Virus record (IMG/VR): IMGVR_UViG_3300048837_000614
Coordinates: 1 to 64,000 of that record
DNA length: 64,000 nucleotides
Source: a virus
Strand: one strand, 5' to 3'
The translations under genes were made by a program, and so were the position numbers. A model generated the notes under the pieces. That model was not told the origin of the DNA, ran no database searches, and worked only from the letters and a program-made list of their open reading frames with translations. Below, piece by piece: positions 2,554 to 47,737 of this stretch. How positions within the stretch are numbered: the stretch's first letter is position 1; each line of letters begins with the position of its first letter.

Positions 2554-2584
2554 TGTATAATGAAAATATAAATGAGGTGTTGAT

Positions 2585-12276: not shown

Positions 12277-12324
12277 AAGTAGACATAAAAACATCTCATG
12301 TATCGCCATGAGAAAGGTGGAAAA

Positions 12325-32702: not shown

Positions 32703-32729
32703 AAGGTGGATATAATTCCATCTTTTTTT
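32703..32729 (+). terminator. Intrinsic terminator
   Basis: AAGGTGGA-TATAAT-TCCATCTT plus T-run. Confidence 0.75.
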
Positions 32730-32769: not shown

Positions 32770-35700
32770 ATGGCAGTCGCAAGAGTTGATAATCCCTGGG
32801 TAAGAAATTTAACATTAGCACCTTCAAGAGTCTATGCTACGTCTCCTTATAGACCCTATGCGGGTGTTTTCAATAATAGAGTAAACGTATCTACAGAACA
32901 ATACCAAGATAATTTTATTAGAGCTCTAAGTCCATTTAGTATCAATGATAAAAATGTAATCAATGCTATTCGCAAAGAATACAATATCGTTGATAATGGA
33001 AATTATAGAATGTCATCTAATGTAGGTTTCGGAGTTGGTGCTGTTGCCGGTGTTGTTGCATCTGGTGTTTTATATGGAAGTACAATAACGACATTAGCGA
33101 ATGCAGCCATTTATGGTGGTATGTTATCCTTTAACCCTGTAGGTTGGACTGCTGCTGCAGTTGGTACTGTTTTAGCTGTAGCAGGAACAATTATGACCTC
33201 TGCCGAATTAGGTAGGGCTATAGGTGCTTCTGTAGGCTCTAGAGAAGGTTCTATCGCTATGAGTAGATATCTTGCTAACCTTGGAAACTCAATGGTTAAG
33301 AGACCTACATCAACGGTTTTAACAGTAGCAACTATATTCGCAACTAATTGGGCTTTAAATAAAACTCCACTTAAATCTCCTATCGTAAGACAAGGTATAA
33401 CAATGACTGCAATGAGAGTTGTAAGACCTATCGCTGACAAATTAGACGATAGTCTTTTTGGTGAACTGAGTGAAGTAGATCAAATGTCTTACACTGATTT
33501 ACTTTCATTGCAAGGAGATTTGGCTGATAACTTCTCTGGTACTTCTTTAGTTAAGGGTGCTTTGGCTGGTGTATCTGGAGATGAAGGAAAGACAAAAGAA
33601 CTTATTGCAAAAATGTACGGTAGACACGAAGAAGGTTTTGATCCACTCGACTTCATGGATGTTCGTGAAGCTTGGGGGATTGACATAGGAACATTTGGAA
33701 ATGGTGTTATCGACATCCTTGGTGAAATAGTTTTTGATACGGATAATTCATTAAACACAATTAAAAATAAAACAACTACTACAATCTCAACATCGATTAA
33801 AAATCAAGTAGTAAAGAAAATCCTCTCTAATGAGAACGGAGATTTATTTAAGAGATACTTTGAAAAAGTAGAAACTAAAAATCCGGACGGAACTATTAAG
33901 ACAGAAATCAAAGCTAAGGATACTTTTAAAAATGAATTTCAAAATAAGATTATCCAAAGAGTAGTTGAAAAATATTTAGACGATTACAAAGACCCTTCTA
34001 CAGCTAAAACAGCCGAAGAAAGAAATGCAATTTTCAAAGAGAACAACGAGAAGTTGGACCACCACATTGGTGATCTTTATATCTATCTCTATAGAAAAGG
34101 TTTAGCTAACATCAAAGAAGACTCTTTAAAGATAGTTGAAGCACAAAAGATTATCGGTGAAATCAAAAAAGAAATTCAAGAAGGGCTTGAGGCTCATTCT
34201 GGTTACATGGAAAAGAATGTAAGCAATAAAACGAAATACGCTAAAGCTGTTAAGACAATGATAGAGTCACAAAAAGAAGCCACTAAAATTGTCAATCAAA
34301 ACTTTAAAAACAATGTCTATAACTTTGATAAAGCAATGCTTAAAGAGTTTCAAATACACAAAGCAGATTTCGATCATAACTATATTACAGGATTGTTAAA
34401 ATTACATCCTGCATTTTATCTTTACTCTGAAGCAAATAATAAAAACATGAGAGTCTTAGGTTATTTCACGAGACCTTTTCAGTCTGCAATTGCAAGTAAA
34501 CCAGGAAGAAAAGTAATTCAAAATGTTTTAAATAAGATTCAAAGAAAGTATGATCCTTACAAGAAGATAACCAAGGTTGATGAAATTATGCAATATGATA
34601 ATCCTATAACCAAGGAACAACAAAAAGAAGCATTAGAAAAGCTTAAACAATTTGATGATGTCTTGAAGGCTCAACTCAATAAATTTGAAGAAGAAAAAAT
34701 GAGACAAACACTCGGACAAGCTGAGATAGATAAACTCCTAAAAGAGTTAAATGACATCGAGGAATTTTTCGCAACTAATAAATTAACTGATGCTGAAAAA
34801 ATTAAGTACGAGAAATTTGAAGCACGTCAAAAGGAACTAACTAAGAAATATGCTGAAGCTAAAGCAGAAGCAATTAAGAAGATGGAAGTAGAAGATAAAA
34901 AGGCTTACGCACGTTATAAGAAATCTTTAAAGACAATCAACGATAGATACAAACAACTTATAGCTAATGCAGAACTTGTAGATAAATACATGGAAATGAC
35001 TAAGTTTGAATATGTCAACAAAGGCGTTAGACAAAAAATGGAAGTCAATAAAGACACCGAACAAGAGGTTTTAGACATTATTAAAGAATTAGAAGCGAAA
35101 AAAGATTTATCCGGTGATGAAAGAATCACTTTAGAAAACGCTAAGTTCGCATACTTCTTATATATGAAGGAAGATTTATTCAAAAAAGGGTATCAAGAAA
35201 TAACTTCAAATTATAATAAAGTAATTAAGTTTATTCAAAACTTCGAAACGTGGTTTACAGAAAACGCCTTTAAGCTGGAATCTTTAGTATTAAATACTAC
35301 GATATTCTCTGAAGTAAAACAACTTCAAAAAGAGATAAGAGATATAGATGCTAAACCATCTAAAACTCAAGATGAACTTGTTTTAGCAGAAAAAGAGAGA
35401 ATTAAATCGAGATACGAAGGTTTGATTAAGACTGTATATGCCAACCTGGAGAATGCGGAAGTATTCGACAAGAAAACAAGAGATGAAATCATCAAAGCTT
35501 TAGAAGGGGATGAGATGATTGAACTTCCTATTTTCTACGCAACAAATTTCTTTTCTGGAATCAAATTATTCGAACAAGACAAATCTTTCTTCTTAAATAA
35601 CAGAGCCCTATTCGATGAATTTAATAAAAGAATTTTAGAAGATGAAACTCAAGATCTATTAGATAGACTTAAGGATTCTATCATTAGAAAATCAAAAACA

Positions 35701-38700
35701 AAGTTTGAGTTTAAACAGAAGACTGAGTTCATCAATAACAAAGAATTACTTATAAAGAAAATTCAAAAGATACTTTTAGATTTGAATACAAAAGAAGATC
35801 CAGATAATCCTGGTTCAAAATTGTTGTCTGATGAAAATTATGAACTACTAAAACAAAACATCGAAGGCGTTGCAACAAGTTTAATCAATACAAATAGATC
35901 GATGCAAGTAGACCCTACAACATTAAGAAAAAATAACATGTACTCTAAGCGTTTTTCTGAACTATCACAGAATGATATCTTAGACTACGCTTTTAGACTT
36001 GCCACAAAGAACAATGAATTCTTAGGTACTGAATCAAAAATGATTGATAACGTTTTAAAAAACTTAGACCATTCAATCAAACAACTTCTACAAGTCGTTA
36101 AAGAAAGTAACAATGGAAAACTTAACTTCTTAGAAGGTTTTATTAACGAAAGCATTAGACGTCAAATGTATAAAATAAACAGTTCTAAAATCATCAATGC
36201 GATTAGTGCGAAGTATCTGCGTGTAGGACAATCGAAGAATTACTTTTTAAACCCAGAAGTTGAAGGTAAAAAGATTAAGGCTCTTAGTGAAAAAGCTCTT
36301 AAGAAAATTTCAAACAAGAAATATAAGTTTGAAACAACTGATAAAGATGTTATTAAACAAGGTATTGCTGCAGAGTTCTTAGAATCATTTAAAGGTACAC
36401 CTATGTATGACTTACTAATCAAGATGGGATTCGAAAAAATAATCAATGATAATGTTTCAGTAATAGATAAGGAAGAGGTTAAACCTAAAAAAGTAAAAAA
36501 GAGAGGTAAATCTCAGGAAGAGAAAGACTTCGAAGAACGTGGATTAACTTACACAAGATTAGTTGATGGAATCGTTAAAGATATCGAAATTAAAACAGGT
36601 AAAGTTTTAGATAACGAAGCAAGAAAGAAAATCTCACAAGCAGTTGCAAAAGCTATTAACGATCAAATAGGCTTAGTCAAGTCTGAATATGAAATCAAGA
36701 GAATGGAAAGTGCAGGATCTAAAAAAGTTTTCGATGATGTCTTCATGAATAAACTTGCTGAATCATTCTTCGGTAAATTAGTTGACGTTGAAAACTTAAG
36801 TTCAATCTTAAGAGGGAATAAAAGTTTACCTAAAACTAAAATAGATATGACTAAACCTGATCCAGAATCTGGAGTAAAAGGAAACCCATATCGTAATGCG
36901 ATTATCAACTTCATGTTAAATAATGAACCTACAGTTGAAAACATAATGAAGTTAAAATTACAACCATTCGGAACTTACTTGAACTTCGATGGTAAGGCTG
37001 TTTCTTTAGAGTCCATTGTTCAAATAGGCGAAGAAAATTTAGTTGGTGCATGGGCTGAAAAATATCGTTCTGACTTTAGTGAAAAAAATGAATATGGAGA
37101 ACCTATAAACGATCCTTTAGTTTTTGAATTCTTTAGAGGAATTGACGTAACTAAAGAAAGCAATGAAGGGTATGAGAGACATGTAGATGCTTCCTTTAAT
37201 TTACCTAATTCGCTTAGAAATAAAAAAGGTCTTCAAAATCTAAAGGACGAAGATTTCGTAGAAGTCAAAGATGATTTTGAAAGTGATGGAACAATAGCAA
37301 ATGATTTTATTAGAGTTTTCAAAGAAAGCGACTACGGACACAACTTCAAAAAAATAGCAATTCATAAAGGACAATTTGTATTTGATGATGTCATTAGAGG
37401 CAAAACAGTCACAAACGATATCATAGTTATTAGAATCACGACTACGGGAAATAAGAGTTATGACTTCTATGTCCCTAGAGAAATAATTAAAACTTATGGC
37501 GATCAAAAGATAGCGACATATAAAGTAAACAATAATGAATACATGAGAGTCATGATTGAAGGAGAAGATGAAAAATCTCTCGCTTATTTAGACAACATTA
37601 GTAAAGCTATTGAAAAAGACTTTATCAATCGCAAAATGATTAGTGATGAATTCAAGCAAAAGTTTGAACCGTTCTCAGTCCAAAAAGAAATCTTTAGATT
37701 ATTTTCTAAACAAAGAAATATAGGCGATACTCATGAACTCATCACAGACTTTGTCTATTTAGATCCTGATAAAACTGATTACGAAAAATTAGTTTACTCA
37801 CTTATGAGAAGACTTGACGAAGGTAAGAGAAAGAACTTAACTAAAAATAAAGCCTTTAGAGATGATTATAAAAAGAATGGTTATTATTTTGACTATACAC
37901 AAAGTGATCCTAAAGTAGTTGTTAAGGGAATCAAATTAAATAGTGGTGAATTTCAGTCTATAACAAGAATTTTTTCTCCGCTTGGTATCTTTACAGGTCG
38001 TGCCGAAAGAAGTGCTTTAGCGGCCAACGCAAGACGTAATGCGATTGAATTAGATACAAACGAACTACCTTTCTTATCATCATTGTTTATTCAACAGAAT
38101 CCTGAACTTTCCCAATTTGAAAAAGGTGGTTTTAATGCACGTGTATATTTAAAGGACACTTACTTAGATAACGGAAGTTCAACACATAATGAAACAGTGA
38201 TTATGAGAGAAGGTTTCGCAAGACAAAAATTTATTAAGAATGGTGTTCCAATGGATCTTTCCAATGGTATGAAAATCATAGATAGATACTCATCTAAACA
38301 TGGCGTGAGAATAGTTTCAGAAGATGAATGGAAAGAGATGTTCAAAGGTGATGATAAAGCTTTAAACTCAGATGTTATCATGTCGAAGAGAACGGTTAGA
38401 AAGAGAACGCTTTGGAATGTTGAAGCTGAACTTGCTATGAATGGTTTGGATGGAACAAGAAAATATATTGATAGCGAAATGAAAGGCAAGACAGATGAAG
38501 AAAAATTAGAATATCTTAAATCGGAGACAAAAGATGGAAATCTTGAAGGCGATCACGGATATCTTTATATGTTTCTAACTGATGATTTAAGCGATAACAA
38601 TGGAAGAGGTTATAAAGTTGCTGGAGATAACGACTCAAGCAATGGTGCAAAAATATCCATTGAAGAATGGCAAATGTTTAGTGCGTTAAGAGAAATCACT

Positions 38701-41700
38701 TACGCTGAAAATGGAAGTAGACAACCTATAGATCCTAATGGGGAATTATTCGACTTCTTATGGAAAAGAACTAAAACTCCTGAATCGGAATTAAGAGAAT
38801 CTATCTATGGAAATGTAAATGCAACCACAGGTAAGCAAGGGAAGTTTAGAAAAGAAATCATCGAAAGAAGAATGCCTAACTCTGCATACGCTAAAGCAAT
38901 ATCAAATACAAAATTAGCTAAGAATGAAATAGGAATACCAAGAGCGATGGCTGAGTCCATGGGTATTATCGTTAAAATCGAAGATGGATCTTATAGCAAT
39001 ACAACATCAAGTTCACAATATGTTTTATTACATCGTTCTCCAACACAAGGTAGAAGAAGTTTTGTTTATGCCAAAGTTAAAATCCTAGACGATGTTAAAG
39101 GAATGGTAAACAAAGCGATAGAAGTTAATCCTGCGTTTGAAGAAGCATTAAACCTTGACTTTGACGGTGATGGTGTTTCTATTTTCTCGTTGAAAGATGC
39201 GACTCCTGACATTTTAAAAATTGCTGAAACTGCATTTAGCCATAGTTATAAAGAAAAAACAAACTACAGCGATTACACTTTAAGAAATGAATATGGTATT
39301 AAACACAAAGATGTTGATATGAAAACTGAAAAAGATTTTGATATTAATAGAGATAAAAAAGATATATTAAACGAGGAAGCAAAACCAAAAGGTTATAAAC
39401 CCTCATTTGTTTCTGAAGATCAATGGGATAATGTTATGTTAAACCAAAAGACTTTAAAAGATTATTCTGGGTTATTTAAAAACATATTTGATGCCGATTA
39501 CCAGGACTATATTTCTAGTAAAGAAAATATGGATTGGTTTAATAAAACATTCAAAACTGAAGACATATCAAACGTTAAATTTGAATCGTTTTATGCACTT
39601 ACAACACTAGCATATGACTTTTATTCGCAAAAGACATTTGACTTCTCTAAGCATAGTAGACCAGGTGAAAAAGAATCTTTCGATGCAATTTATTCTATTA
39701 TCAAGAAAAAAGGTGGAGAAACTTTTGAGAATCACATTAGAAAATTAGTTAAAGTTCTTATGTTTGATATAACAAATACCCAAAAGAAGAATAGTAAAAT
39801 AGAGTTAATCAACAAGAGAAAAGATATTTCTGATTCAGAAAAAAGCAGACTATCTGATATAGAAGTTCAAAAATATCTTTACAAATTACGAGAATTCTTA
39901 AAAGAGGTAAGTAGAGAAGAACAAAGATTAGGTAAGACTAAACCCGAGATAATTAAAGAAGCTGAAACTAAAGAAATTGAAGGCGAAAAAGTTAAACCTG
40001 AAGAAGAACTACCAAAACAATTTGAAGAAGCTGACAACCAATTACTTAGAGATATCAATAAGATTTTAAAAGATAATGGTTTAGAAGAAACTACTATGGA
40101 CCAATTGGGTGCATTTAAGTCTGATAAGTTACTTTCGATTACAGGTGCATTCGATCAAAACGAAATCAAACATTTTAATCTCAATGATTGGAACTTAGAC
40201 CTTAAAGGTGTAAATCAAGTCTTTAGTTTTATGCTGAAGATGAATCAAGATATCGCCAAAGCAGCAAAAAGAAAGATGAAAACTAATGATAAAGTTTTAG
40301 AACCATTCCACAAAGCGTTTACAACTTATATAAGACAAGTGATACAGTCTTTTTATCAAGATCCTGATGTACTTAAAAACTTGTATCTTATTAAGATTGT
40401 AGAAATAAATGGGGAAGAAGTCCCTGAAAAGATAAGTTTCTTAGAATTGATTAATGTTTTTGGTTTGAAACCAGACGGAAAGTCCAAGAGAAGTATAGCC
40501 ACATTTAAAAACATAAACCCTGCAATCACTAAAATGGATAGCATAGGTGTTAATAAAGATGTATTAAGACTAGATGATAAGCGTCTAAGAAGTTTTTATA
40601 TAAGCAATGAGTCTGCATTCGAATCACCTAAATTAAATCGTTTAACGAATGAATTATTTACGAAGGTTCATAACAACATTAGAAAGACATTAAACAATAT
40701 GGGTTTAGGTGGAACACCTGTATTCAGCCCACTATTACACAACAAGTTGTTATTTAAACAAAATGTTTTTGACTCAATGTATCAAGCTCTTATGAGCAAC
40801 GAAGAAGATAAATCTATACTCGTGGATATCTTAAGAGATATGGGCGATGAAGATTCTATCAATGAATTAAAAGAAATCTTCAAACCATTCTTCATGTTTC
40901 AAACTGTTGCCCAATTCTTATCGGGTGATAAGAGAACAAACTTCATTAAATACCTATATCAAGTTGAGGGTATTTTTGACGACACGATAAAGACGGTTAT
41001 TCCAGAAAAGAAAACAGGTGCACTTGTTAAGAACTTAATCCGTTGGAACTTGATGAAAACAGGTGAACCCTACGAAGATTTTGGAAACGAGATTAAAGTT
41101 CTACTTAATACGAATGATGATAAGGTTGTAGATGAAATCGTTGAGATCTATTATCAAATGAGAAATGGTTTATTGGATAAAGATACATATGGTTCAATGA
41201 GTCAATTCGATAAAATGGATAGAGAGTTTAAATTAGATTTATTAGTCAAGATACACGAAATTAAGAACGGTAAGTTCGTAGAAAAGTTCGGAAGTAAGTA
41301 TGGAATCACTCAAGAAGATTTGAGAGAGAAAACTGAAAACTTCGAAATAGATGATAAGGTCATGGCTAAGTTCTTTAGAATTTATGACTATGCTTTTGAC
41401 ACAATTGAAGGAACTTTCGATATTAAGAATAGACAAAGAATCACAAGTGCTTTAGAAAAAGAAAAGATTAACTTTGGTTTAGTAAGTAATGTGATTAAAA
41501 ATGCTAACTATGAGTTATCAAAACTTGTGGCAAACACAATTACCATTCAAAACTCCAAAGGCGAAGCTGAAGATGTTAATCCATATCCATTTAGAAGTTT
41601 ATTACACCCAAATAACATCGAAGAAAATTCCATAATACTTATGAATGCGAACAAGAATAAGATGGCTAAAAACCTTACTGAACGTTTCTACAGATTAGTT

Positions 41701-44700
41701 ATGAAAGCTTTCAACAAAGAGGGTGCCGATAGTGAAATGACTAAGGAGATCCAAAAGATAAGTAATGATTTGAAAGCCGGTAATGACATCATGTCCTTAT
41801 ATTTATTTGAGGGTAAAGATATTGGAAGTTTTATCAAATTACTCAATGATTTAATTAACAATCAACAAACATTTACGATTCCATTGACGGATAGAATATT
41901 CAAATATTTCTTACACTTCAATGAAATGTCTAAAGTTATGGGTTTCGACAAGAAGATAATGCCTGGTACTATTGACGCTTACTACAGAGATATTAAAGGA
42001 TCAAACGTTGTAGATAGCGAAGGCAATATTAAAATGAATAATATTTACCGTATCATGTTCTTCGATTACGTTTACGGAGAGGGTATGCAAATCAATGCAA
42101 GAAATAACACTCCTGAGTTCCAGGAAGCATTTAACAATTTAGTTTCTTACTTTGATAAGAACCCTAACATGAATACATTTGGTTTACATCCACACGCATT
42201 TGTTGAAACATTCTTTGGTAAGATGTTATTTGAACAAAGAGTTGAAAGCGAAAAGCACACCATTAAAGAAGATCCAAAACCTATCCAAGAAAAACTCATA
42301 GAGTATTACAAGGATAGAATTAAAGAACTTGAAGTGCTTTCCAAAAATAGAGATTCAACAAGCAACGAATATCTTAAAGCAATGGAAGAAGCAACAGAAA
42401 AAGGCGAAACTTTAGATTTAAGTCAAATTACGATTGATCCTGTTAAGCAACAAGAAATATTAGACGCCTACAAAAAATATTTATCTGTAGAACTTCTTGA
42501 AGAAAAGATTGTAGATGATAAAGTTTCTAACGTATTCGATACATTTGAGTGGTCGAAGTACATAGGTCAAGAAGGTGTTGAGTTTAATACCAAAAACCTA
42601 TTTAACATTTATGCTCAACTTATTGGTAAAAAAGAATTTCCACAAGAAGAAATCGTCAAGCTAACTGAAGAGTTATCTCAAGAGATTATTAGAGATAATA
42701 CAAACGCTAATTTCAAGTTTAAAGGTAATAAGAAGATACATACAGCGTTGATAGATGCACAACTTAACTTAAAAGTAATGGATCTTATCGTTAGAGAGTT
42801 CGAAAAGAACGAAGGTAGATATAAAGACTACCAAGAGTTAAAAACTCTTATAAACGATTTTAAAGACCCAAGCAAGAAGAAGAACTTTGCTATCATAGAT
42901 AGTGAAAACTTAGTTTCTGGAAATGACTACAACCGTATTTATGAAATCTCATACATAACGTTTGATGATAATGGTAAGCCTTTATATCATCAACATTATT
43001 TGAAGTATGACATTGATAAAAGAACTGAAAATTGGTTGAAGAAGATGGGTTATAGCGATAAAGAAATTCAAATTATCAAAGACAACATGAAGAATATCGC
43101 TGATCCAGATTACAACAAAAAGATTTATGAACAAGTTTTTGCTGATTTAAAAGGTAAAAACCTTATTGGACAAAGTGTCAAATCACAAGGCGACACTCCG
43201 GGTGATATCGGTAAATTGAATTACGAATATCAACAAATTCTTAAGAATGATGTTCGTAAAACGATTAAGAAACATAATGAAAAAGAACAAGAGTTCTTAG
43301 ATAACATTAAAGAATCAAGCATGAAAGACTTGATGAAGAATGTAGATAGCACTGAACTTAATTCAACAGCTCAAGCTGATATGATGATGAAAGTTTTAAT
43401 TGACATCGTTAAAGAAGATTTGAACGAAAAGATTTTACCTCAAGGCGTTGAAAAAATTGACAACGAACAATTTAATACACACATATCAAAGACTTCAGAA
43501 TTAATGAGAGTGTTTATTGAAGAAAACAATCAAGACATTCTTAAACTTCGTATGGAAGAAATCTTAGAGATCGATGAAATGCCTAAAGAAGTATTTGATG
43601 CAATCTTAAAGAAATTCGAAGATAAATTCAACGAATTAAAAGGTGAAAACAATGATGGCGTACTTGTGATGAAGTGGCCTAGAATTGTTAAAACTGAAGA
43701 TGGTGTAAGAGTAGAGTTTTTAGAAGTTGATGAAAAAGAAATCGTTGGCAAAAATGAAGAGTTCTTAGTTAAGAAAGTAAGATTCGACTCTGACGATGTT
43801 CGTGCAAATTACTTATTTAGAAGTCGTGCCTTTTATGAAATCATCAAAGAAGTCAAGGACATGATTATCATTCGTGGTATACCACATGAACATTTAGGTA
43901 AGACAGTTCAAAGAACAATTACCTTAAATCAATACGAAATGCTTAATCGCAAAATCGTAAGATTACAAGGCAAGCTTGATGATAAAAATCTAAAAGTTAA
44001 AAAGCATTTAGATGATGCAACAAAGTTTATGATGGAAGGTAACGAAGTCGAATACCTTGTATCCATGAATAAAGCAATAAAAGAATATGAAAAAACAAAT
44101 TCTAAGATGGATGCTTTTACAGATATCGATTTAGAAACCGACTCAAACAAGGTCGATTTATTCTTGAAAGAACAAGTCGAAAAGAATACAGGCCAAATGG
44201 CTAACATTCCAATGTGGAGAGTTGAACAACACTTCGCAGATATGATTTCTAAATTCTATAAAGATACTTTGGCATCGAAAAGAACGATTGAAGAAAAAGA
44301 ACAAGATTATAAGTACATCGCTAAAATCGAAGATATTATTACAGCTTTAGAGTATGAAGATATGAACACTTTAGATTTCAAGCGATTTGCTGACATCGTA
44401 GGTTTAAATGAGTATGGCGATTTCGGTAGAGAAATACATACACAACTTATGGAAACTTACGAAGATTACAAGAAAAACGGTATACCATTCTTCTATGCAG
44501 GAAGTGACAAACCTTATTCAACACTTGAATATAAAGAAGATGGCGAAAACCTATTTAAAAAAATGGCTTTCTATGCAATACTCAATCCACGTAGTGATGA
44601 TAAAAAAACTTTAGGAAGTTTCTTGAAGATGATTATCTCTGAAGAAGGCGTTAGAGAATACAAACGCTATGACATCGATGAAACAAAGCAAACCGAAATA

Positions 44701-47619
44701 GATAAAGTAAAATCTAAGTTAGTCAACAAAAAACAAGAAGATGCAAGAAACAAAGAAGCTTTCGCAGACGCTAGAATTGAAGTTAAAAACATGATACTCA
44801 AAGAGGATTGGGCTGGTTTAGAAGCATACTTAAAAGACAAACCTGGTGAGAAGTTTAATATTGAAGAATTCAAACAAAGATTTTATGAAGAGTTCAACAA
44901 AACTAAAACTAAAGGTATTGCCAAATACAAAATGGAATGGCGTATGGAAGGACAAACTCCTACACCGTTTGAGAAGTTTATTGAAAGCGTTCCTTACATT
45001 GAACAACCTGGTGTTCGTGGTGAGTTCTTAAGAACAGTTATTTCTAATTTTGAAAAAGAGATTAGTGGAATCACTTATATTAAGAGTCACTATACAACGT
45101 TAGATCCAACGATGAGAGTTGATAAACCTGTAACATACAAGTATTACAACGACCATTTAGAAGATTACAATGGTAAATGGGTACCAAGTGATTACCGTAG
45201 GGATCATCCACAAAATCAAACGATTAGAAAGAGTTATGATTACTTAAGAGCAAACGTTGATAAGACAAGAGATTTGTCACAGTATCAAGCTGGGTTTGAA
45301 GGAATGATTGCACCTTTTAGAAAAGGAAATAGTTATGACTATGAAAAACTATACTACGAATTAACTGAAGGTTATTTATCAAAGATTTACAAATTAACAA
45401 TTATTACTGATATTTCCAAAGGTTCTACAGGTATGGGTAAACTGACCGAAGAACAAGAGATTGAAGCTTCTACAGAACGTAGAAACAAAGCGTTCCAAAA
45501 AGGTTTACAAAAGAAGATTGATAAACTTGAAAATAAGATTATCGAACTTCAAAAGTTAAACACTCCTGAAGCAAATCAACAGATTTCACAAATTAGATTA
45601 CAAATCGATGATACCAAAAAAGTAGTATATCAAAAGAACAAGTATTACGACGAAGCCGAAATATCTAAATTGAGAAGAAGTGAGCCGATTTGGAAATCAG
45701 ATCAAGAAGTATTTGGAAGTTCAATCATAAGAACTACAGACAAAAAAGGTAATGTAGTTGAAGAGAATATGTTAGATTGGATGGACAGTATTAAAGACAC
45801 AGCACACCCAACCTTAAAGGTAATAGCTTTAGATGGCAACAAAGAAAATGCCATCAAACAACTCAAAGAGTTAGTTAAGATGAATAGAGAAAAAGGTTTA
45901 CACCTTGGTTTCACATTACTTCATGACATCTTAAAGACTGATGAAATGAGTTATTCTGGTTATATGTTGCCTAAACCTGTTGCTATGCTGCAGTCAAGTA
46001 TTATTAAGTTTCAAAAGTTCATGATGTTAATGAACAATGGATTCATGGTTAGAAATATCTATGATGGTATGCTAAGAAATCATCAACTGATTTTAGGTAG
46101 TGATGATATCGTGAGTGAAAACTTTAGATTTGCTAAAGAGGCAGTTAGAAGTTGGAACTTGATTTTCCAATACAAAGCATACGCTAAAGCCCATGGTTTC
46201 CAAGTGAGAGAACTTAAACACTTCTTCGAAAGCGTTAAAGACTTTGAAAGTGGTCCATATGCGTTGCATGATTTACAAAAAGTTAGCACAGACTTTCAAG
46301 CGATGCTAACATTACAAATAGATTCTCTTAAGAATTATTTGGGAAACATCATCAAAGATGAAAACCAAACAGCAACAAGACGTGCTAGTGACAACTTCAC
46401 AGACCTATCAAGAATCATGAGAAGATTACAAGCAATCGTAGATACACTAAAAAATAACCCGGCAACAAAGTCACCAGAATATATTAAAGAGTTTAAATTG
46501 CAACTGAAAGATTTCTTTGAAGTCTATCAACAGGCTGGTTTCTTTAAGCAAGTTATTATGAATGCTAATGATAAGAGAATCAAATTAGATTTTAGTAATA
46601 ATTCAGAAGATAACATCAAAAAAACTAAAGATAATCTTAACATGGTTAGACTTATCAATGAAATCGAAAAGTCTGGTATCATTTCGGATCAATACGAAAT
46701 TACAGGTAAACAAGATGTTAAAGATATCTATAGAAACATCGATAAGATGTTAGATGATGAATTGATGAATGTCGGTTTAAACGATAGAATCGATAAGATT
46801 ATGTCGCATCACCCTATCGCTATTGCAACAAACTATGTTGAACAGCATCAACGTGTCCATGGTGTCCTACTCGATATGTTCGTCAATGGTAAAACTAAAG
46901 ATAGAGCCTTGGCTGAATCTTTAGGTAGATTCTTCAACTACGGTATGAAGGGTGCTTATGAAAAATCAGCAAGTGTTTACTTCCCGTTCATGAGCTTTGC
47001 CATTAGAAACTTAGATTACTATTTGGACCTTATGGGCGACCAAAAGTATATGAGATTTATGACAAACGTAGCACAAGGTATGAATACCTGGTATGATGAT
47101 GAAGATGAAGAAAACTTTAGATTTAGTCGTTCATTTAATGACTTTACTGAAAACCAAGGCTGGATACCTTTAGGTAAGAATTATGGAATTAAAATGGGCA
47201 ACGCCATGTTTGATGCCATGAGTTTGGTTGAGGATCCATTTCAAAGTGGATACCAAAAATTAAATCCTGTTTTACAACAGGCTAATAATCTTACCAAGGG
47301 TGAAGATTTTAATCCGAAAGCATTAGCTTCCGTTACACAATATAGCCGTATGGCTAGTGCGATAGGAACAATCGCTAAAGGACAAGGCATGAATATGCCA
47401 CAGGATTTACCTGATTTAGTTCCATCTCTATTTTATAAACGTAGTGAATACACTCCGTATAAGTATAGAAGATATTCTACTGACTATAGAAATATTTATA
47501 GAAATCTATTCTTTAGTGATGGAAGTCGTAGAGTCCCAAGTAAGAATCCGTTTACTACAGCTAAGAATATTCGTTATGAAGCCTATGTTCGTGCAAGATT
47601 AAATGCGAATATAAAATAG
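32770..47619 (+). CDS. Giant 4949-aa internal virion protein containing a fused beta/beta' (two-barrel) DNA-dependent RNA polymerase; candidate virion RNAP
   Basis: Collinear RNAP motifs: RSALAANARRNA(~38008), NETVIMRE(~38188), GMKIIDRYSSKHGV(38266), DVIMS, GYLYM(38557), GAKISIEEW(38644), GKQGKFR..RMPNS..IGIP(38830), LHRSPT(39028), NPAFEEALNLDFDGDG (NLDFDGD at 39151-39171). N-terminal Gly/Ala-rich hydrophobic helices; C-terminal FFNY..YE..YFPFMSF..RN motif. Confidence 0.88.
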   Translation: MAVARVDNPWVRNLTLAPSRVYATSPYRPYAGVFNNRVNVSTEQYQDNFIRALSPFSINDKNVINAIRKEYNIVDNGNYRMSSNVGFGVGAVAGVVASGVLYGSTITTLANAAIYGGMLSFNPVGWTAAAVGTVLAVAGTIMTSAELGRAIGASVGSREGSIAMSRYLANLGNSMVKRPTSTVLTVATIFATNWALNKTPLKSPIVRQGITMTAMRVVRPIADKLDDSLFGELSEVDQMSYTDLLSLQGDLADNFSGTSLVKGALAGVSGDEGKTKELIAKMYGRHEEGFDPLDFMDVREAWGIDIGTFGNGVIDILGEIVFDTDNSLNTIKNKTTTTISTSIKNQVVKKILSNENGDLFKRYFEKVETKNPDGTIKTEIKAKDTFKNEFQNKIIQRVVEKYLDDYKDPSTAKTAEERNAIFKENNEKLDHHIGDLYIYLYRKGLANIKEDSLKIVEAQKIIGEIKKEIQEGLEAHSGYMEKNVSNKTKYAKAVKTMIESQKEATKIVNQNFKNNVYNFDKAMLKEFQIHKADFDHNYITGLLKLHPAFYLYSEANNKNMRVLGYFTRPFQSAIASKPGRKVIQNVLNKIQRKYDPYKKITKVDEIMQYDNPITKEQQKEALEKLKQFDDVLKAQLNKFEEEKMRQTLGQAEIDKLLKELNDIEEFFATNKLTDAEKIKYEKFEARQKELTKKYAEAKAEAIKKMEVEDKKAYARYKKSLKTINDRYKQLIANAELVDKYMEMTKFEYVNKGVRQKMEVNKDTEQEVLDIIKELEAKKDLSGDERITLENAKFAYFLYMKEDLFKKGYQEITSNYNKVIKFIQNFETWFTENAFKLESLVLNTTIFSEVKQLQKEIRDIDAKPSKTQDELVLAEKERIKSRYEGLIKTVYANLENAEVFDKKTRDEIIKALEGDEMIELPIFYATNFFSGIKLFEQDKSFFLNNRALFDEFNKRILEDETQDLLDRLKDSIIRKSKTKFEFKQKTEFINNKELLIKKIQKILLDLNTKEDPDNPGSKLLSDENYELLKQNIEGVATSLINTNRSMQVDPTTLRKNNMYSKRFSELSQNDILDYAFRLATKNNEFLGTESKMIDNVLKNLDHSIKQLLQVVKESNNGKLNFLEGFINESIRRQMYKINSSKIINAISAKYLRVGQSKNYFLNPEVEGKKIKALSEKALKKISNKKYKFETTDKDVIKQGIAAEFLESFKGTPMYDLLIKMGFEKIINDNVSVIDKEEVKPKKVKKRGKSQEEKDFEERGLTYTRLVDGIVKDIEIKTGKVLDNEARKKISQAVAKAINDQIGLVKSEYEIKRMESAGSKKVFDDVFMNKLAESFFGKLVDVENLSSILRGNKSLPKTKIDMTKPDPESGVKGNPYRNAIINFMLNNEPTVENIMKLKLQPFGTYLNFDGKAVSLESIVQIGEENLVGAWAEKYRSDFSEKNEYGEPINDPLVFEFFRGIDVTKESNEGYERHVDASFNLPNSLRNKKGLQNLKDEDFVEVKDDFESDGTIANDFIRVFKESDYGHNFKKIAIHKGQFVFDDVIRGKTVTNDIIVIRITTTGNKSYDFYVPREIIKTYGDQKIATYKVNNNEYMRVMIEGEDEKSLAYLDNISKAIEKDFINRKMISDEFKQKFEPFSVQKEIFRLFSKQRNIGDTHELITDFVYLDPDKTDYEKLVYSLMRRLDEGKRKNLTKNKAFRDDYKKNGYYFDYTQSDPKVVVKGIKLNSGEFQSITRIFSPLGIFTGRAERSALAANARRNAIELDTNELPFLSSLFIQQNPELSQFEKGGFNARVYLKDTYLDNGSSTHNETVIMREGFARQKFIKNGVPMDLSNGMKIIDRYSSKHGVRIVSEDEWKEMFKGDDKALNSDVIMSKRTVRKRTLWNVEAELAMNGLDGTRKYIDSEMKGKTDEEKLEYLKSETKDGNLEGDHGYLYMFLTDDLSDNNGRGYKVAGDNDSSNGAKISIEEWQMFSALREITYAENGSRQPIDPNGELFDFLWKRTKTPESELRESIYGNVNATTGKQGKFRKEIIERRMPNSAYAKAISNTKLAKNEIGIPRAMAESMGIIVKIEDGSYSNTTSSSQYVLLHRSPTQGRRSFVYAKVKILDDVKGMVNKAIEVNPAFEEALNLDFDGDGVSIFSLKDATPDILKIAETAFSHSYKEKTNYSDYTLRNEYGIKHKDVDMKTEKDFDINRDKKDILNEEAKPKGYKPSFVSEDQWDNVMLNQKTLKDYSGLFKNIFDADYQDYISSKENMDWFNKTFKTEDISNVKFESFYALTTLAYDFYSQKTFDFSKHSRPGEKESFDAIYSIIKKKGGETFENHIRKLVKVLMFDITNTQKKNSKIELINKRKDISDSEKSRLSDIEVQKYLYKLREFLKEVSREEQRLGKTKPEIIKEAETKEIEGEKVKPEEELPKQFEEADNQLLRDINKILKDNGLEETTMDQLGAFKSDKLLSITGAFDQNEIKHFNLNDWNLDLKGVNQVFSFMLKMNQDIAKAAKRKMKTNDKVLEPFHKAFTTYIRQVIQSFYQDPDVLKNLYLIKIVEINGEEVPEKISFLELINVFGLKPDGKSKRSIATFKNINPAITKMDSIGVNKDVLRLDDKRLRSFYISNESAFESPKLNRLTNELFTKVHNNIRKTLNNMGLGGTPVFSPLLHNKLLFKQNVFDSMYQALMSNEEDKSILVDILRDMGDEDSINELKEIFKPFFMFQTVAQFLSGDKRTNFIKYLYQVEGIFDDTIKTVIPEKKTGALVKNLIRWNLMKTGEPYEDFGNEIKVLLNTNDDKVVDEIVEIYYQMRNGLLDKDTYGSMSQFDKMDREFKLDLLVKIHEIKNGKFVEKFGSKYGITQEDLREKTENFEIDDKVMAKFFRIYDYAFDTIEGTFDIKNRQRITSALEKEKINFGLVSNVIKNANYELSKLVANTITIQNSKGEAEDVNPYPFRSLLHPNNIEENSIILMNANKNKMAKNLTERFYRLVMKAFNKEGADSEMTKEIQKISNDLKAGNDIMSLYLFEGKDIGSFIKLLNDLINNQQTFTIPLTDRIFKYFLHFNEMSKVMGFDKKIMPGTIDAYYRDIKGSNVVDSEGNIKMNNIYRIMFFDYVYGEGMQINARNNTPEFQEAFNNLVSYFDKNPNMNTFGLHPHAFVETFFGKMLFEQRVESEKHTIKEDPKPIQEKLIEYYKDRIKELEVLSKNRDSTSNEYLKAMEEATEKGETLDLSQITIDPVKQQEILDAYKKYLSVELLEEKIVDDKVSNVFDTFEWSKYIGQEGVEFNTKNLFNIYAQLIGKKEFPQEEIVKLTEELSQEIIRDNTNANFKFKGNKKIHTALIDAQLNLKVMDLIVREFEKNEGRYKDYQELKTLINDFKDPSKKKNFAIIDSENLVSGNDYNRIYEISYITFDDNGKPLYHQHYLKYDIDKRTENWLKKMGYSDKEIQIIKDNMKNIADPDYNKKIYEQVFADLKGKNLIGQSVKSQGDTPGDIGKLNYEYQQILKNDVRKTIKKHNEKEQEFLDNIKESSMKDLMKNVDSTELNSTAQADMMMKVLIDIVKEDLNEKILPQGVEKIDNEQFNTHISKTSELMRVFIEENNQDILKLRMEEILEIDEMPKEVFDAILKKFEDKFNELKGENNDGVLVMKWPRIVKTEDGVRVEFLEVDEKEIVGKNEEFLVKKVRFDSDDVRANYLFRSRAFYEIIKEVKDMIIIRGIPHEHLGKTVQRTITLNQYEMLNRKIVRLQGKLDDKNLKVKKHLDDATKFMMEGNEVEYLVSMNKAIKEYEKTNSKMDAFTDIDLETDSNKVDLFLKEQVEKNTGQMANIPMWRVEQHFADMISKFYKDTLASKRTIEEKEQDYKYIAKIEDIITALEYEDMNTLDFKRFADIVGLNEYGDFGREIHTQLMETYEDYKKNGIPFFYAGSDKPYSTLEYKEDGENLFKKMAFYAILNPRSDDKKTLGSFLKMIISEEGVREYKRYDIDETKQTEIDKVKSKLVNKKQEDARNKEAFADARIEVKNMILKEDWAGLEAYLKDKPGEKFNIEEFKQRFYEEFNKTKTKGIAKYKMEWRMEGQTPTPFEKFIESVPYIEQPGVRGEFLRTVISNFEKEISGITYIKSHYTTLDPTMRVDKPVTYKYYNDHLEDYNGKWVPSDYRRDHPQNQTIRKSYDYLRANVDKTRDLSQYQAGFEGMIAPFRKGNSYDYEKLYYELTEGYLSKIYKLTIITDISKGSTGMGKLTEEQEIEASTERRNKAFQKGLQKKIDKLENKIIELQKLNTPEANQQISQIRLQIDDTKKVVYQKNKYYDEAEISKLRRSEPIWKSDQEVFGSSIIRTTDKKGNVVEENMLDWMDSIKDTAHPTLKVIALDGNKENAIKQLKELVKMNREKGLHLGFTLLHDILKTDEMSYSGYMLPKPVAMLQSSIIKFQKFMMLMNNGFMVRNIYDGMLRNHQLILGSDDIVSENFRFAKEAVRSWNLIFQYKAYAKAHGFQVRELKHFFESVKDFESGPYALHDLQKVSTDFQAMLTLQIDSLKNYLGNIIKDENQTATRRASDNFTDLSRIMRRLQAIVDTLKNNPATKSPEYIKEFKLQLKDFFEVYQQAGFFKQVIMNANDKRIKLDFSNNSEDNIKKTKDNLNMVRLINEIEKSGIISDQYEITGKQDVKDIYRNIDKMLDDELMNVGLNDRIDKIMSHHPIAIATNYVEQHQRVHGVLLDMFVNGKTKDRALAESLGRFFNYGMKGAYEKSASVYFPFMSFAIRNLDYYLDLMGDQKYMRFMTNVAQGMNTWYDDEDEENFRFSRSFNDFTENQGWIPLGKNYGIKMGNAMFDAMSLVEDPFQSGYQKLNPVLQQANNLTKGEDFNPKALASVTQYSRMASAIGTIAKGQGMNMPQDLPDLVPSLFYKRSEYTPYKYRRYSTDYRNIYRNLFFSDGSRRVPSKNPFTTAKNIRYEAYVRARLNANIK

Positions 47620-47700: not shown

Positions 47701-47737
47701 AAAAAAAAGGGTAATGCCGTTAAGCACTACCCTTTAT
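47701..47737. terminator. Bidirectional terminator at the convergence of the two arms
   Basis: A-run-GGGTAATGC-CGTTAA-GCACTACCC-T-run between convergent genes. Confidence 0.75.

What the first reader, a model, noticed from the sequence alone, without database searches (positions are those of the whole stretch)
38000..39240. RNAP core is extremely minimised: flap and clamp apparently deleted
Seen: only ~25 aa separate the ETVIMRE and GMK motifs, where E. coli beta has ~250 aa including the flap. Only ~60 aa separate GAKISIEEW from GKQGKFR, where cellular enzymes have the beta C-terminus plus ~330 aa of beta' with zinc-binding domain and clamp. Both barrels' motifs fit in ~400 aa. Inference: the main sigma-docking surfaces are missing, so promoter recognition must be sigma-independent (ssDNA/hairpin, or via other domains of the polyprotein). 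A possible minimal model of two-barrel RNAPs.
Basis: partly seen in the sequence, partly recalled or inferred. Interest (0 to 1): 0.72.

Follow-up and report, generated by a model that had tools for sequence, protein, structure and literature searches.

The report
Compact clamp-less phage RNA polymerase core
A giant, cysteine-free phage protein carries in its middle a very compact RNA polymerase of the cellular two-barrel type that lacks the flap and clamp, which makes it a new, rare family of an already known kind of phage enzyme rather than a new kind.

Summary
In the 4949-aa ORF 32770-47619(+), ETVIMRE and GMK start 25 aa apart; E. coli beta has 250 aa between the matching motifs. Only 53 aa lie between GAKISIEEW and GKQGKFR, against about 398 in E. 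coli. These spacings hold in 7 of 7 aligned homologues.

- **Beta'-like barrel:** statistically supported (profile vs PDB E 1.3e-9; hhalign 95% to RpoC).
- **Beta-like barrel:** rests on an invariant G-x-K-x3-R-x3-K motif and medium-confidence AlphaFold models, which align with beta-type subunits and, over both barrels, with QDE-1, P23-45 gp96 and P74 gp62.
- **Zinc domain:** the whole chain has no cysteine, so no zinc-binding clamp domain exists anywhere in it.
- **Downstream elements:** candidate bridge helix (aa 2216-2249) and trigger-loop-like hairpin (aa 2274-2311).

Flap-less and clamp-less single-chain two-barrel RNAPs are in print: YonO, gp96 ("clamp-less, flat"), the yeast plasmid K2ORF6p, and the 616-aa gp64. 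What is new is a rare, unannotated family of 8 giant proteins. Its beta' motifs are unusually cell-like and its inter-barrel connector is the shortest of those compared (47-53 aa). It probably works as a virion-delivered, sigma-independent early RNAP. The scan noted this same stretch before, on this genome only.

The parts
32770..47619 (+). Giant ORF of 4949 aa with no cysteine. It is the last gene of the rightward structural block and the carrier of the RNAP core.
   Evidence: 0 Cys and no HExxH. Collinear homologues of 3570-5293 aa. Terminator-like hairpins at 32703-32724(+) before the gene and 47706-47735(-) after it.
33016..33207 (+). Two Gly/Ala-rich hydrophobic segments (aa 83-105 and 124-146) in the conserved N-terminal module. 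Possible membrane-inserting part of an ejection protein (inferred).
   Evidence: Kyte-Doolittle windows of 1.5 or more occur only here in the whole chain. Weak, probably compositional hhalign matches to hydrophobic parts of the gp96 tape measure, E 0.011-0.045.
38002..39894 (+). Single-chain two-barrel RNAP core, about aa 1745-2375.
   Evidence: Model m6d92af793c59 has pLDDT 67.5 and pTM 0.69. VIA-align: QDE-1 7y7p_A Z 11.1, rmsd 4.5, 310 aligned, model 11-589; P74 gp62 8f5m_A Z 9.3, 292 aligned; gp96 8h2n_A Z 8.5, 287 aligned, model 4-627 against chain 327-1104. Foldseek: beta' chains at about E 1e-6, gp96 8h2m at E 1.9e-5.
38098..38670 (+). Beta-like double-psi beta-barrel (aa about 1777-1967). 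Carries E1808 and the invariant G1833-x-K1835-x3-R1839-x3-K1843, and ends in GAKISIEEW.
   Evidence: Invariant columns. Same G-x-K-x3-R-x3-K spacing as RpoB 1063-1073. Nine chains I read as second-largest RNAP subunits align to model residues 37-208 at Z 7.9-10.1. Not significant by hhalign against RpoB.
38212..38265 (+). 18-residue loop at the point where cellular beta carries the flap domain.
   Evidence: The model shows only a short helix here.
38671..38829 (+). 53-aa connector between the two barrels. It stands in place of the beta C-terminus plus beta' residues 1-332.
   Evidence: 47-53 aa in 7 of 7 homologues. Modelled as a beta-hairpin plus two short helices, partly at low confidence. 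For comparison, the gp96 connector is aa 613-679 and those of gp66 and QDE-1 are about 140 aa.
38830..39189 (+). Beta'-like double-psi beta-barrel (aa 2021-2140) with GKQGKFR, HRSPTQGRRS and the Mg-binding NLDFDGD.
   Evidence: PF00623 at E 3.4e-5, 24.6 bits against a 25.3-bit cut-off; 24.9 bits, or 33.4 with its neighbours. hhalign to RpoC 331-468 at 95% probability. Profile against PDB at E 1.3e-9.
39238..39414 (+). Charged linker of variable length (aa 2157-2215), modelled as disordered.
   Evidence: pLDDT under 50. Many gaps in the family alignment.
39415..39516 (+). Candidate bridge helix: a 34-residue helix at aa 2216-2249 with invariant Q2226, L2229, K2230, Y2232 and Y2247.
   Evidence: Helix 476-509 of the model. 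Conservation. Rpb1, QDE-1 and gp96 alignments run through it. No residue-level superposition was possible.
39589..39702 (+). Candidate trigger-loop element: a helix-loop-helix at aa 2274-2311 with an invariant Y-S-Q-x2-F-D-F-x-K-H, whose K-H tip is at aa 2294-2295.
   Evidence: Helices 534-555 and 558-571 with a low-confidence tip. Invariant columns.

Best explanation
The stretch encodes the catalytic core of a single-chain two-barrel DNA-dependent RNA polymerase. A beta-like barrel and a beta'-like barrel are joined by only about 50 residues. A bridge-helix-like and a trigger-loop-like element follow. The beta flap, the beta' zinc-binding domain and the clamp helices are absent. The core lies in the middle of a roughly 5000-residue cysteine-free protein, which is made with the structural genes of an uncultured podovirus-like phage. 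Most likely the protein is packed in the virion and ejected with the DNA. The polymerase part would then transcribe the first phage genes without host sigma. Those genes include a second, distantly related phage RNAP. This is the scheme shown for crAss-like phi14:2 gp66 and Thermus phage P23-45 gp96 with gp64. Shown here: the motifs and spacings, their conservation, homology of the beta' barrel, the predicted fold, and the absence of cysteine. Inferred: RNA synthesis activity, virion packaging, sigma independence, and which genes it transcribes.
For: Spacings and E. coli references; conservation in 7 of 7 homologues. The catalytic set is invariant: G-x-K-x3-R-x3-K, GK-x-G, R-x-P, N-x-D-x-D-G-D. 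Beta' barrel: hhalign 95%; PDB profile E 1.3e-9, with all 60 rows shown being beta'/Rpb1/gamma chains. Both barrels align in one chain with QDE-1, gp62, gp96 and RDR2. 0 Cys in 4949 aa against 0.5% in the other ORFs of the genome; 0 Cys also in the 5293-aa relative L008. The gene ends the structural block, after the capsid and large structural genes, and is followed by a convergent terminator. A second RNAP candidate, P0016 (1146 aa, DFDGD at 811), lies near the head of the leftward block. hhalign links it to this family collinearly over both barrels: E 3.9e-5 to 7.5e-5, 365-367 columns. Precedents read as full text or passages.
Against: No experiment exists and the host is unknown. The models rest on only 7-8 sequences (pLDDT 57.5 and 67.5), so domain boundaries and the bridge-helix and trigger-loop calls are approximate. 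The beta-like half has no significant sequence match to RpoB. There is no sequence-level link to gp66 or gp64, and only E 0.004-0.006 to gp96 around DFDGD. No Pfam or PHROG family supports a virion or ejection role for the flanks. Long conserved helical modules after aa 2319 could act as a non-homologous clamp.
Confidence: 0.62

Rival explanations
1. The enzyme is not really minimal. The working polymerase is much larger than the roughly 630-aa core. Conserved flanking modules of the polyprotein, or another phage protein, would supply a non-homologous clamp, DNA-binding or promoter-recognition surface, as in gp66, where about 1600 residues surround the barrels.
For: The chain is collinear and conserved from about aa 1270 to the C-terminus in 6 of 6 homologues. 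Two long helices (aa 2319-2349 and 2355-2388) and further folded parts follow the trigger-loop candidate. No stand-alone relative of 345-1236 aa turned up with the family profile: none of 8000 scored candidates. gp66 precedent.
Against: gp96 keeps activity as fragment 327-1124 and is clamp-less. The downstream helices match only designed helical bundles. No known DNA-binding family was detected in the chain.
Confidence: 0.35
2. The giant protein is a tail tape measure protein of a long-tailed phage with an inserted RNAP, like P23-45 gp96, and not an internal ejection or cargo protein of a short-tailed phage.
For: Similar size: 4949 against 5002 aa. Hydrophobic Gly/Ala segments, and weak matches to hydrophobic parts of gp96.
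Against: The nearest cultured relatives of the capsid protein and terminase are Paenibacillus phages API480 and SV21; that API480 is a podovirus is my reading of the name vB_PlaP. There is a weak portal match to the SU10 podophage portal, below cut-off. The RNAP is mid-chain, not N-terminal. There is no HExxH metallopeptidase motif. No tail-tube or sheath family was seen, though the search was not exhaustive.
Confidence: 0.12
3. The two-barrel domain does not transcribe genes. It would be a relic kept for structure, or a primer-making or RNA-templated polymerase.
For: The best single structural match is QDE-1, an enzyme with RNA- and DNA-templated activity, at Z 11.1. PolD DP2 also aligns, at Z 9.2.
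Against: Every residue needed for Mg and NTP binding is invariant across homologues down to 24-30% identity. The phage has its own helicase, primase-type and polymerase genes elsewhere.
Confidence: 0.05

Closest known systems
Thermus phage P23-45 gp96 virion RNAP (PDB 8H2M/8H2N; PMC10770324)
   Same: A single chain with both barrels and a canonical DFDGD, fused to a roughly 5000-aa virion protein. It has a short connector (aa 613-679) and is described as clamp-less and flat. It is partnered with a second, non-virion two-barrel RNAP taken to be an old paralogue. The structural alignment covers both barrels: Z 8.5-10.1, 287-301 residues.
   Different: There the RNAP is N-terminal in a tape measure protein with a metallopeptidase, in a long-tailed thermophilic phage. 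Here it is mid-chain, with no HExxH, in a probably short-tailed phage. Sequence similarity is limited to the DFDGD area (E 0.004-0.006). The connector here is shorter (47-53 aa).
Yeast linear-plasmid (pGKL2) RNAP K2ORF6p/K2ORF7p (PMC6211774, passages read)
   Same: A cellular-type beta-beta' fusion in which the beta' N-terminal regions are missing: most of the clamp, the lid and the rudder.
   Different: K2ORF6p keeps almost all conserved beta regions, and it needs a second small subunit and a capping enzyme. Here the beta part is cut down to the barrel. No sequence comparison was run.
SPbeta YonO (PMC5467207, passages read)
   Same: A phage single-chain two-barrel RNAP of about 100 kDa, taken to lack most accessory domains of cellular RNAP. 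The paper's discussion cites flap, lid, zipper, rudder and lobe as dispensable.
   Different: YonO is a free-standing non-virion protein, and its similarity to cellular RNAP is confined to a few residues. Here the beta' barrel matches cellular beta' at E 1e-9. No sequence comparison was run.
crAss-like phage phi14:2 gp66 (PDB 6VR4; 10.1101/2020.03.07.982082)
   Same: A virion RNAP at the end of the structural block, flanked by large virion proteins that in some crAss-like phages are fused into one polyprotein. It is rifampicin-resistant and transcribes early genes.
   Different: gp66 has DFDID, a connector of about 140 aa and a cleft-blocking domain. hhalign finds no similarity to gp65, gp66 or gp67. 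The capsid and terminase here are not crAss-like.
Neurospora QDE-1 and plant RDR2 (PDB 7Y7P, 7W84)
   Same: Best whole-core structural matches: Z 11.1 over 310 residues and Z 8.4 over 333 residues.
   Different: These are eukaryotic RNA-silencing enzymes with a longer connector and head and neck domains. No sequence similarity was detected.

Membership tests
Two-barrel (2 x DPBB) RNA polymerase superfamily | Beta'-type barrel with the Mg-binding N-x-D-x-D-G-D loop | tested here: met
   NLDFDGD at aa 2128-2134, with D-x-D-G-D invariant in all homologues. hhalign to RpoC 331-468 at 95%. PDB profile E 1.3e-9. PF00623 at 24.6 bits, just under the 25.3 cut-off; 33.4 bits with neighbouring stretches.
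Two-barrel (2 x DPBB) RNA polymerase superfamily | Beta-type barrel with the two NTP-binding lysines, in the same chain or a partner chain | tested here: met
   G1833-x-K-x3-R-x3-K1843 is invariant and spaced as in RpoB 1063-1073. Model residues 37-208 align to nine second-largest-subunit chains at Z 7.9-10.1. Caveat: hhalign to RpoB is not significant, and the models are of medium confidence.
Two-barrel (2 x DPBB) RNA polymerase superfamily | Bridge helix and trigger loop after the beta' barrel | tested here: inconclusive
   A 34-residue conserved helix (aa 2216-2249) and a helix-loop-helix with an invariant K-H tip (aa 2274-2311) are present. Alignments to Rpb1, QDE-1 and gp96 run through them. 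No residue-level superposition was available, and hhalign to RpoC over this part is not significant.
Two-barrel (2 x DPBB) RNA polymerase superfamily | Template-dependent RNA synthesis | not testable with these tools
   Needs a biochemical assay.
Canonical cellular multisubunit RNAP (beta / beta') | Flap (wall) domain inserted in the beta barrel | tested here: not met
   18 residues between the flanking motifs, against 248 in E. coli. The motif-to-motif distance is 21-30 aa in 7 of 7 homologues.
Canonical cellular multisubunit RNAP (beta / beta') | Beta' N-terminal clamp with a zinc-binding domain and clamp helices | tested here: not met
   A 53-aa connector stands in place of about 398 aa. 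There are 0 Cys in the whole chain and 0-1 in each of 7 relatives.
crAss-like virion RNAP (gp66 family) | DFD(I/V)D catalytic motif, stated in the paper for all crAss-like phages | tested here: not met
   Glycine at the fourth position in all 8 members. The paper's statement was read.
crAss-like virion RNAP (gp66 family) | Detectable similarity to gp66 and its neighbours gp65 and gp67 | tested here: inconclusive
   hhalign of the family profile against the single sequences gave nothing better than E 0.09. 6VR4 was not among the 50 rows listed by VIA-align. A profile-to-profile test was not possible.
P23-45 gp96-type virion RNAP | Clamp-less core with a short inter-barrel connector and DFDGD | tested here: met
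   Connector of 47-53 aa against 67 aa in gp96. DFDGD, DYDGD or DHDGD in all members. Both-barrel structural alignment at Z 8.5-10.1. Whether the fold is truly flat cannot be read from these models.
P23-45 gp96-type virion RNAP | RNAP at the N-terminus of a tape measure protein that carries a metallopeptidase | tested here: not met
   The core starts at about aa 1745 of 4949. There is no HExxH anywhere in the chain.
P23-45 gp96-type virion RNAP | Paired with a paralogous non-virion two-barrel RNAP in the same genome | tested here: met
   P0016, at genome positions 77440-80880(-), is 1146 aa with DFDGD at 811. hhalign gives E 3.9e-5 to 7.5e-5 over 365-367 collinear columns. The probability is only 62-70%, so the link is suggestive rather than firm.
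YonO-like RNAPs | Sequence or profile similarity to YonO | not tested

The most novel reading that the evidence does not exclude
This family would be the most reduced natural fusion of cellular-type beta and beta' barrels: a core of about 630 aa, a 47-53-aa connector, and beta' motifs still matching cellular enzymes at E 1e-9. On this reading it works on its own, starting at promoters with neither sigma nor clamp. It and the phage's second RNAP would have arisen by duplication, so virion and non-virion RNAP pairs would have evolved in a short-tailed phage lineage independently of P23-45. It would then serve as a tractable link between cellular RNAPs and the divergent single-chain phage and RNAi enzymes.
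Probability: 0.2. Interest if true: 0.65.

Novelty: new member of a known kind. Interest (0 to 1): 0.42.

Why it matters
Single-chain two-barrel RNAPs are used to ask which parts of the universal transcription enzyme are truly essential, and where cellular and RNA-silencing polymerases came from. Most known phage examples share little more with cellular RNAP than the DxDGD loop.

This family keeps clearly cell-like beta' motifs while having lost the flap, the clamp and the zinc domain. It may therefore help align the divergent enzymes with the cellular ones. It also adds a second example of a giant virion protein with a clamp-less polymerase paired with a second phage RNAP.

Complete absence of cysteine from roughly 5000-residue proteins in 7 of 8 members (one has a single Cys) is a simple, testable signature. 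It may relate to passage of the protein through the tail.

The practical value is moderate. The concept is already in print, the host is unknown, and nothing has been tested at the bench.

Tried and rejected
**crAss-like gp66 orthologue (my first guess).** Rejected. The motif is DFDGD, not DFDID. hhalign finds no similarity to gp65, gp66 or gp67. tblastn with the capsid protein and the terminase found 7 and 2 phage records, none of them Crassvirales.

**PHROGs on the giant protein.** 0 families.

**Searches of the phage collection.** Megablast gave no match. tblastn gave one hit, MT836236, which proved to be an ordinary bacterial rpoC (GKQGRFR and NADFDGD present, 17 Cys) inside an unverified 'Bacteriophage sp.' scaffold. 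It is not a relative.

**Searches for relatives in other collections.**
- IMG/VR with the single protein: 15 pattern matches, 0 relatives.
- Genomes of 185,579 species with profile A3: 171 pattern matches, 0 relatives.
- Metagenome contigs: 223 pattern matches, 1 relative, L008.
- Stand-alone forms of 345-1236 aa: none of 8000 scored candidates. I did not search the 'shorter' or 'longer' classes with the profile.

**hhalign of sub-profiles of the beta-like half and of the bridge/trigger region against RpoB and RpoC.** Not significant. The best was E 0.2, at RpoB 676-700.

**Structure library absences.** 6VR4 (gp66) did not appear among the 50 rows listed in either VIA-align run. This is an absence from a list, not evidence of a different fold.

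**ESM Atlas.** Best scores were 0.86-0.88, below the level the tool calls evidence.

**Sequencing runs.** No RNA holder is listed. There were only small shares in contig-level wastewater runs, so I did not lay reads, since contigs cannot show transcript starts.

**12-mer survey for a repeated promoter motif.** It gave only A/T-rich words.

**Not done.** Complex prediction was not used. I did not ask for supplementary files of papers. Supplementary Data 3 and 4 of PMC10770324 (alignments of 23 RNAP families, and a survey of viruses with two RNAPs) may already contain this family, and I could not check that. My two literature searches for a prior description and the first one listed no paper on this family.

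Full report
**What is there**

The finding lies inside one open reading frame, 32770-47619 on the + strand, of 4949 aa.
- ETVIMRE at aa 1808-1814 (nt 38191-38211)
- GMK at aa 1833-1835
- GAKISIEEW at aa 1959-1967
- GKQGKFR at aa 2021-2027
- HRSP at aa 2088
- NLDFDGD at aa 2128-2134 (nt 39151-39171)

**Check of the spacings**

I took E. coli K-12 rpoB and rpoC from the public record rather than from memory. In RpoB, ED is at 813, GDKMAGRHGNKG at 1063, GGQRFGEMEVW at 1266-1276, and the chain ends at 1342. In RpoC, GKQGRFR is at 333 and NADFDGD at 458.

| Interval | This protein | E. coli |
|---|---|---|
| First pair of motifs, start to start | 25 aa (18 between) | 250 aa |
| Between last beta motif and first beta' motif | 53 residues | 66 + 332 = 398 residues |
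| E1808 to D2134 | 327 aa | not computed |

They are a property of the family. In an alignment of the window protein with six homologues (27-73% identical), the two spacings are 21-30 aa and 47-53 aa in 7 of 7 sequences, and the E-to-D span is 303-331 aa.

**How rare the family is**

- A word-indexed search of 5.8 billion proteins found 7 proteins, self included, among 4828 candidates. All are 3570-5230 aa.
- An exhaustive phmmer search of 1.84 billion cluster representatives found 11 hits at E 0.001 or better. Three are giant relatives and four are fragments of 71-231 aa. The other four are proteins of 626-810 aa that I read as ordinary Rpb1/beta'-type N-terminal halves, matching only aa 2010-2143.
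- A profile of the core found no stand-alone protein of 345-1236 aa.
- It found no relative in the genomes of 185,579 prokaryote species.
- It found one more giant ORF in a metagenome contig: L008, at least 5293 aa, 24-33% identical along the whole length.

PHROGs has no family for the protein. Pfam gives only PF00623 at 24.6 bits, just under its 25.3-bit cut-off. The genome-search tool scored the same stretch at 24.9 bits, or 33.4 with neighbouring stretches.

**Is it a two-barrel RNA polymerase?**

The beta' half is secure.
- The family profile matches E. coli RpoC 331-468 at 95% probability, E 1.7e-8 to 2.5e-8.
- It matches solved beta'/Rpb1 chains at E 1.3e-9 and weaker. All 60 rows shown are of that type, including the AR9 phage beta'.
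- GK-x-G, the Ser of RMPNS, the Pro of GIP, R-x-P, GRRS and N-x-D-x-D-G-D are invariant.

The beta half is less secure by sequence. hhalign of the profile, whole or in pieces, against RpoB is not significant. The beta assignment rests on two things.
- One is the invariant G1833-x-K1835-x3-R1839-x3-K1843, spaced exactly as RpoB G1063-K1065-R1069-K1073.
- The other is structure prediction, described next.

**Structure prediction**

Two AlphaFold2 models were made with the 7-8 available sequences.

| Model | Residues | Mean pLDDT | pTM |
|---|---|---|---|
| 1 | aa 1601-2750 | 57.5 | 0.42 |
| 2 | aa 1741-2400 | 67.5 | 0.69 |

The barrels score 70-90. Linkers are below 50.

With VIA-align against 48,161 chains, the second model gave these matches:

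| Chain | Z | rmsd or aligned | Range |
|---|---|---|---|
| QDE-1 7y7p_A | 11.1 | rmsd 4.5, 310 aligned | model 11-589 |
| P74 gp62 8f5m_A | 9.3 | 292 aligned | not noted |
| PolD 6t8h_B | 9.2 | 226 aligned | not noted |
| P23-45 gp96 8h2n_A | 8.5 | 287 aligned | model 4-627 to chain 327-1104 |
| Maize RDR2 7w84_A | 8.4 | 333 aligned | not noted |

Nine further chains align to model 37-208 at Z 7.9-10.1: 7ogp_C, 8q3b_B, 8qma_A, 6rfl_B, 4c2m_B, 6j9e_C, 7s00_C, 7eu0_B and 5fj8_B. I take these to be second-largest (beta/Rpb2-type) subunits from entry and chain letter.

The larger model gave beta'-type largest subunits at Z up to 12.8, and gp96 at Z 10.1 with 301 aligned residues. Foldseek ranked RNAP largest-subunit chains first (E about 1e-6 to 5e-5) and gp96 at 1.9e-5. 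The tool warns that Z of 7-8 is common for unrelated models. What persuades me is the consistency of the matched families and ranges, not any single score.

**Flap and clamp**

Between ETVIMRE and GMK the model has only a short helix. The Xanthomonas beta chain aligns residues 725-1285 to model residues 17-208, so about 370 beta residues in that span have no counterpart.

The connector is modelled as a beta-hairpin and two short helices. The decisive simple test for a zinc-binding domain 'elsewhere in the chain' is cysteine.
- The 4949-aa protein has none.
- The six homologues have 0, 0, 0, 0, 0 and 1.
- L008 has 0.
- No member has HExxH.
- The other ORFs of 150 aa or more in the genome hold 86 Cys in 17,319 aa, or 0.5%.

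So the flap, the zinc domain and the clamp helices have no homologue here. By established knowledge of bacterial holoenzyme, these are the two main sigma contacts.

What I cannot exclude is a non-homologous substitute. The chain is collinear and conserved from about aa 1270 to the end in all homologues. Long helices (aa 2319-2349 and 2355-2388) follow the catalytic part.

**Bridge helix and trigger loop**

After a charged linker of variable length (aa 2157-2215) come two elements.
- A 34-residue helix at aa 2216-2249, with five invariant residues.
- A helix-loop-helix at aa 2274-2311, whose low-confidence tip carries an invariant K-H inside Y-S-Q-x2-F-D-F-x-K-H.

The alignments to Rpb1, QDE-1 and gp96 extend through both. 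I call them candidates only, since no residue-level superposition was available.

**Context**

The record is a virus contig of 85,919 nt. Its last 3.1 kb repeat positions about 1050-4192 exactly, so the unit genome is about 81.7 kb.

The giant gene ends the rightward block. That block holds terminase, a portal-like gene, capsid and large structural genes. A convergent terminator follows the gene.

The nearest cultured relatives of the capsid protein and terminase are Paenibacillus phages API480 and SV21, at 28% identity. They are not Crassvirales.

The N-terminal 330 aa are Gly/Ala-rich, with the only two strongly hydrophobic segments of the chain.

Near the head of the leftward block lies a second candidate RNAP, P0016: 1146 aa, with DFDGD at 811. 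BLASTP, Pfam and a PDB sequence search see nothing in it. However, the family profile aligns to it collinearly over both barrels: 365-367 columns, E 3.9e-5 to 7.5e-5, probability 62-70%. No other single-chain RNAP tested gave more than a local match. gp96 reached E 0.004-0.006 around DFDGD, and gp64 and gp66 gave nothing.

**Comparison with what is known**

- The preprint on phi14:2 gp66 (read in full parts) shows a virion RNAP that transcribes early genes. It is rifampicin-resistant and works on single-stranded DNA in vitro. It has DFDID, a connector of about 140 aa and about 1600 residues of unique folds. The paper notes that in some crAss-like phages the RNAP and its two neighbours are fused into one huge polyprotein.
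- The P23-45 paper (parts read) shows a virion RNAP fused to a 5002-aa tape measure protein. Its minimal active fragment is 327-1124, and its connector (613-679) is disordered and half as long as in QDE-1 and gp66. The paper describes 'a clamp-less, flat structure', AT-rich promoters, and a partner non-virion RNAP thought to be an old duplicate. gp64 itself is only 616 aa.
- The YonO paper (passages) argues that flap, lid, zipper, rudder and lobe are dispensable for RNA synthesis.

The enzyme is not the smallest of its kind.

**What differs**

- The beta' barrel is much closer to cellular beta' than to gp66, gp64 or gp96, the single-chain enzymes whose sequences I could test.
- The connector is the shortest among those I could compare.
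- The core sits mid-chain in a cysteine-free polyprotein of a lineage unrelated to crAss-like or Thermus phages.

**Verdict**

This is a new, rare family within a known kind: virion-type single-chain two-barrel RNAPs without flap and clamp. The mechanism is inferred by analogy, namely packaging, ejection and sigma-independent early transcription that includes the second RNAP gene. I hold it at about 0.6. Interest is moderate.

Noticed in passing
Genome G000 77440-80880 (-), outside the window (L002:941-4381): A second candidate single-chain two-barrel RNAP: 1146 aa (P0016), with DFDGD at 811, near the head of the leftward block. It has no Pfam, PDB-sequence or BLASTP similarity to anything. 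The virion-RNAP family profile nevertheless aligns to it over both barrels, at E 4e-5 to 7.5e-5.
   Followed up: partly
window 32770-47619 and homologues P0002-P0007, L008: Cysteine is completely absent from proteins of about 5000 aa: 0 Cys in 7 of 8 family members and 1 in the eighth. The rest of the genome has 0.5% Cys. This may relate to unfolded passage through the tail, or to an oxidising compartment.
   Followed up: partly
window about 1050-4192 and genome 82777-85919: The end of the contig repeats the terminase-portal region exactly (100% over about 3.1 kb at an offset of 81,727). The first roughly 1050 nt do not match what precedes the second copy. The unit genome is therefore about 81.7 kb, and the record looks like an over-run circular or concatemeric assembly with a variant or chimeric left end. 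IMG/VR calls it linear and 75% complete.
   Followed up: partly
window 4481-11602 (+): A 2373-aa protein combining a CotH kinase-like domain (aa 792-1120), Listeria-Bacteroides repeats and BspA-type leucine-rich repeats (aa 2193-2318). It is probably a host-binding fibre and may hint at the host.
   Followed up: no
window 25011-28892 (+), aa 133-225: A staphylococcal-nuclease domain (PF00565, E 3.9e-6; phrog_452) near the N-terminus of a 1293-aa structural-block protein.
   Followed up: no
L006 (MT836236.1) 6957-11291: A GenBank scaffold labelled 'UNVERIFIED: Bacteriophage sp.' carries what looks like an ordinary bacterial rpoC: 1444 aa, with GKQGRFR and NADFDGD and 17 Cys. This is probably bacterial DNA in a virome bin.
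   Followed up: partly
Genome G000 67404-67435 and 77144-77177 (outside the window): Two similar GC-rich hairpins in an AT-rich genome. Each lies just upstream of leftward features: one about 20 nt before a ribosome-binding site, the other after the second RNAP gene. No T-run follows either. They are candidate phage-RNAP signals or processing sites, but there are only two copies.
   Followed up: partly
P0003 (homologue, 4948 aa): One homologue is filed at NCBI under a Candidatus Moranbacteria metagenome-assembled genome. This is either a binning artefact or a clue to the host range.
   Followed up: no
window 12298-13674 (+): A DnaB-like replicative helicase (phrog_19, E 1.8e-63) sits on the rightward strand between the large fibre-like gene and the capsid gene. 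The other replication genes are on the leftward strand.
   Followed up: no
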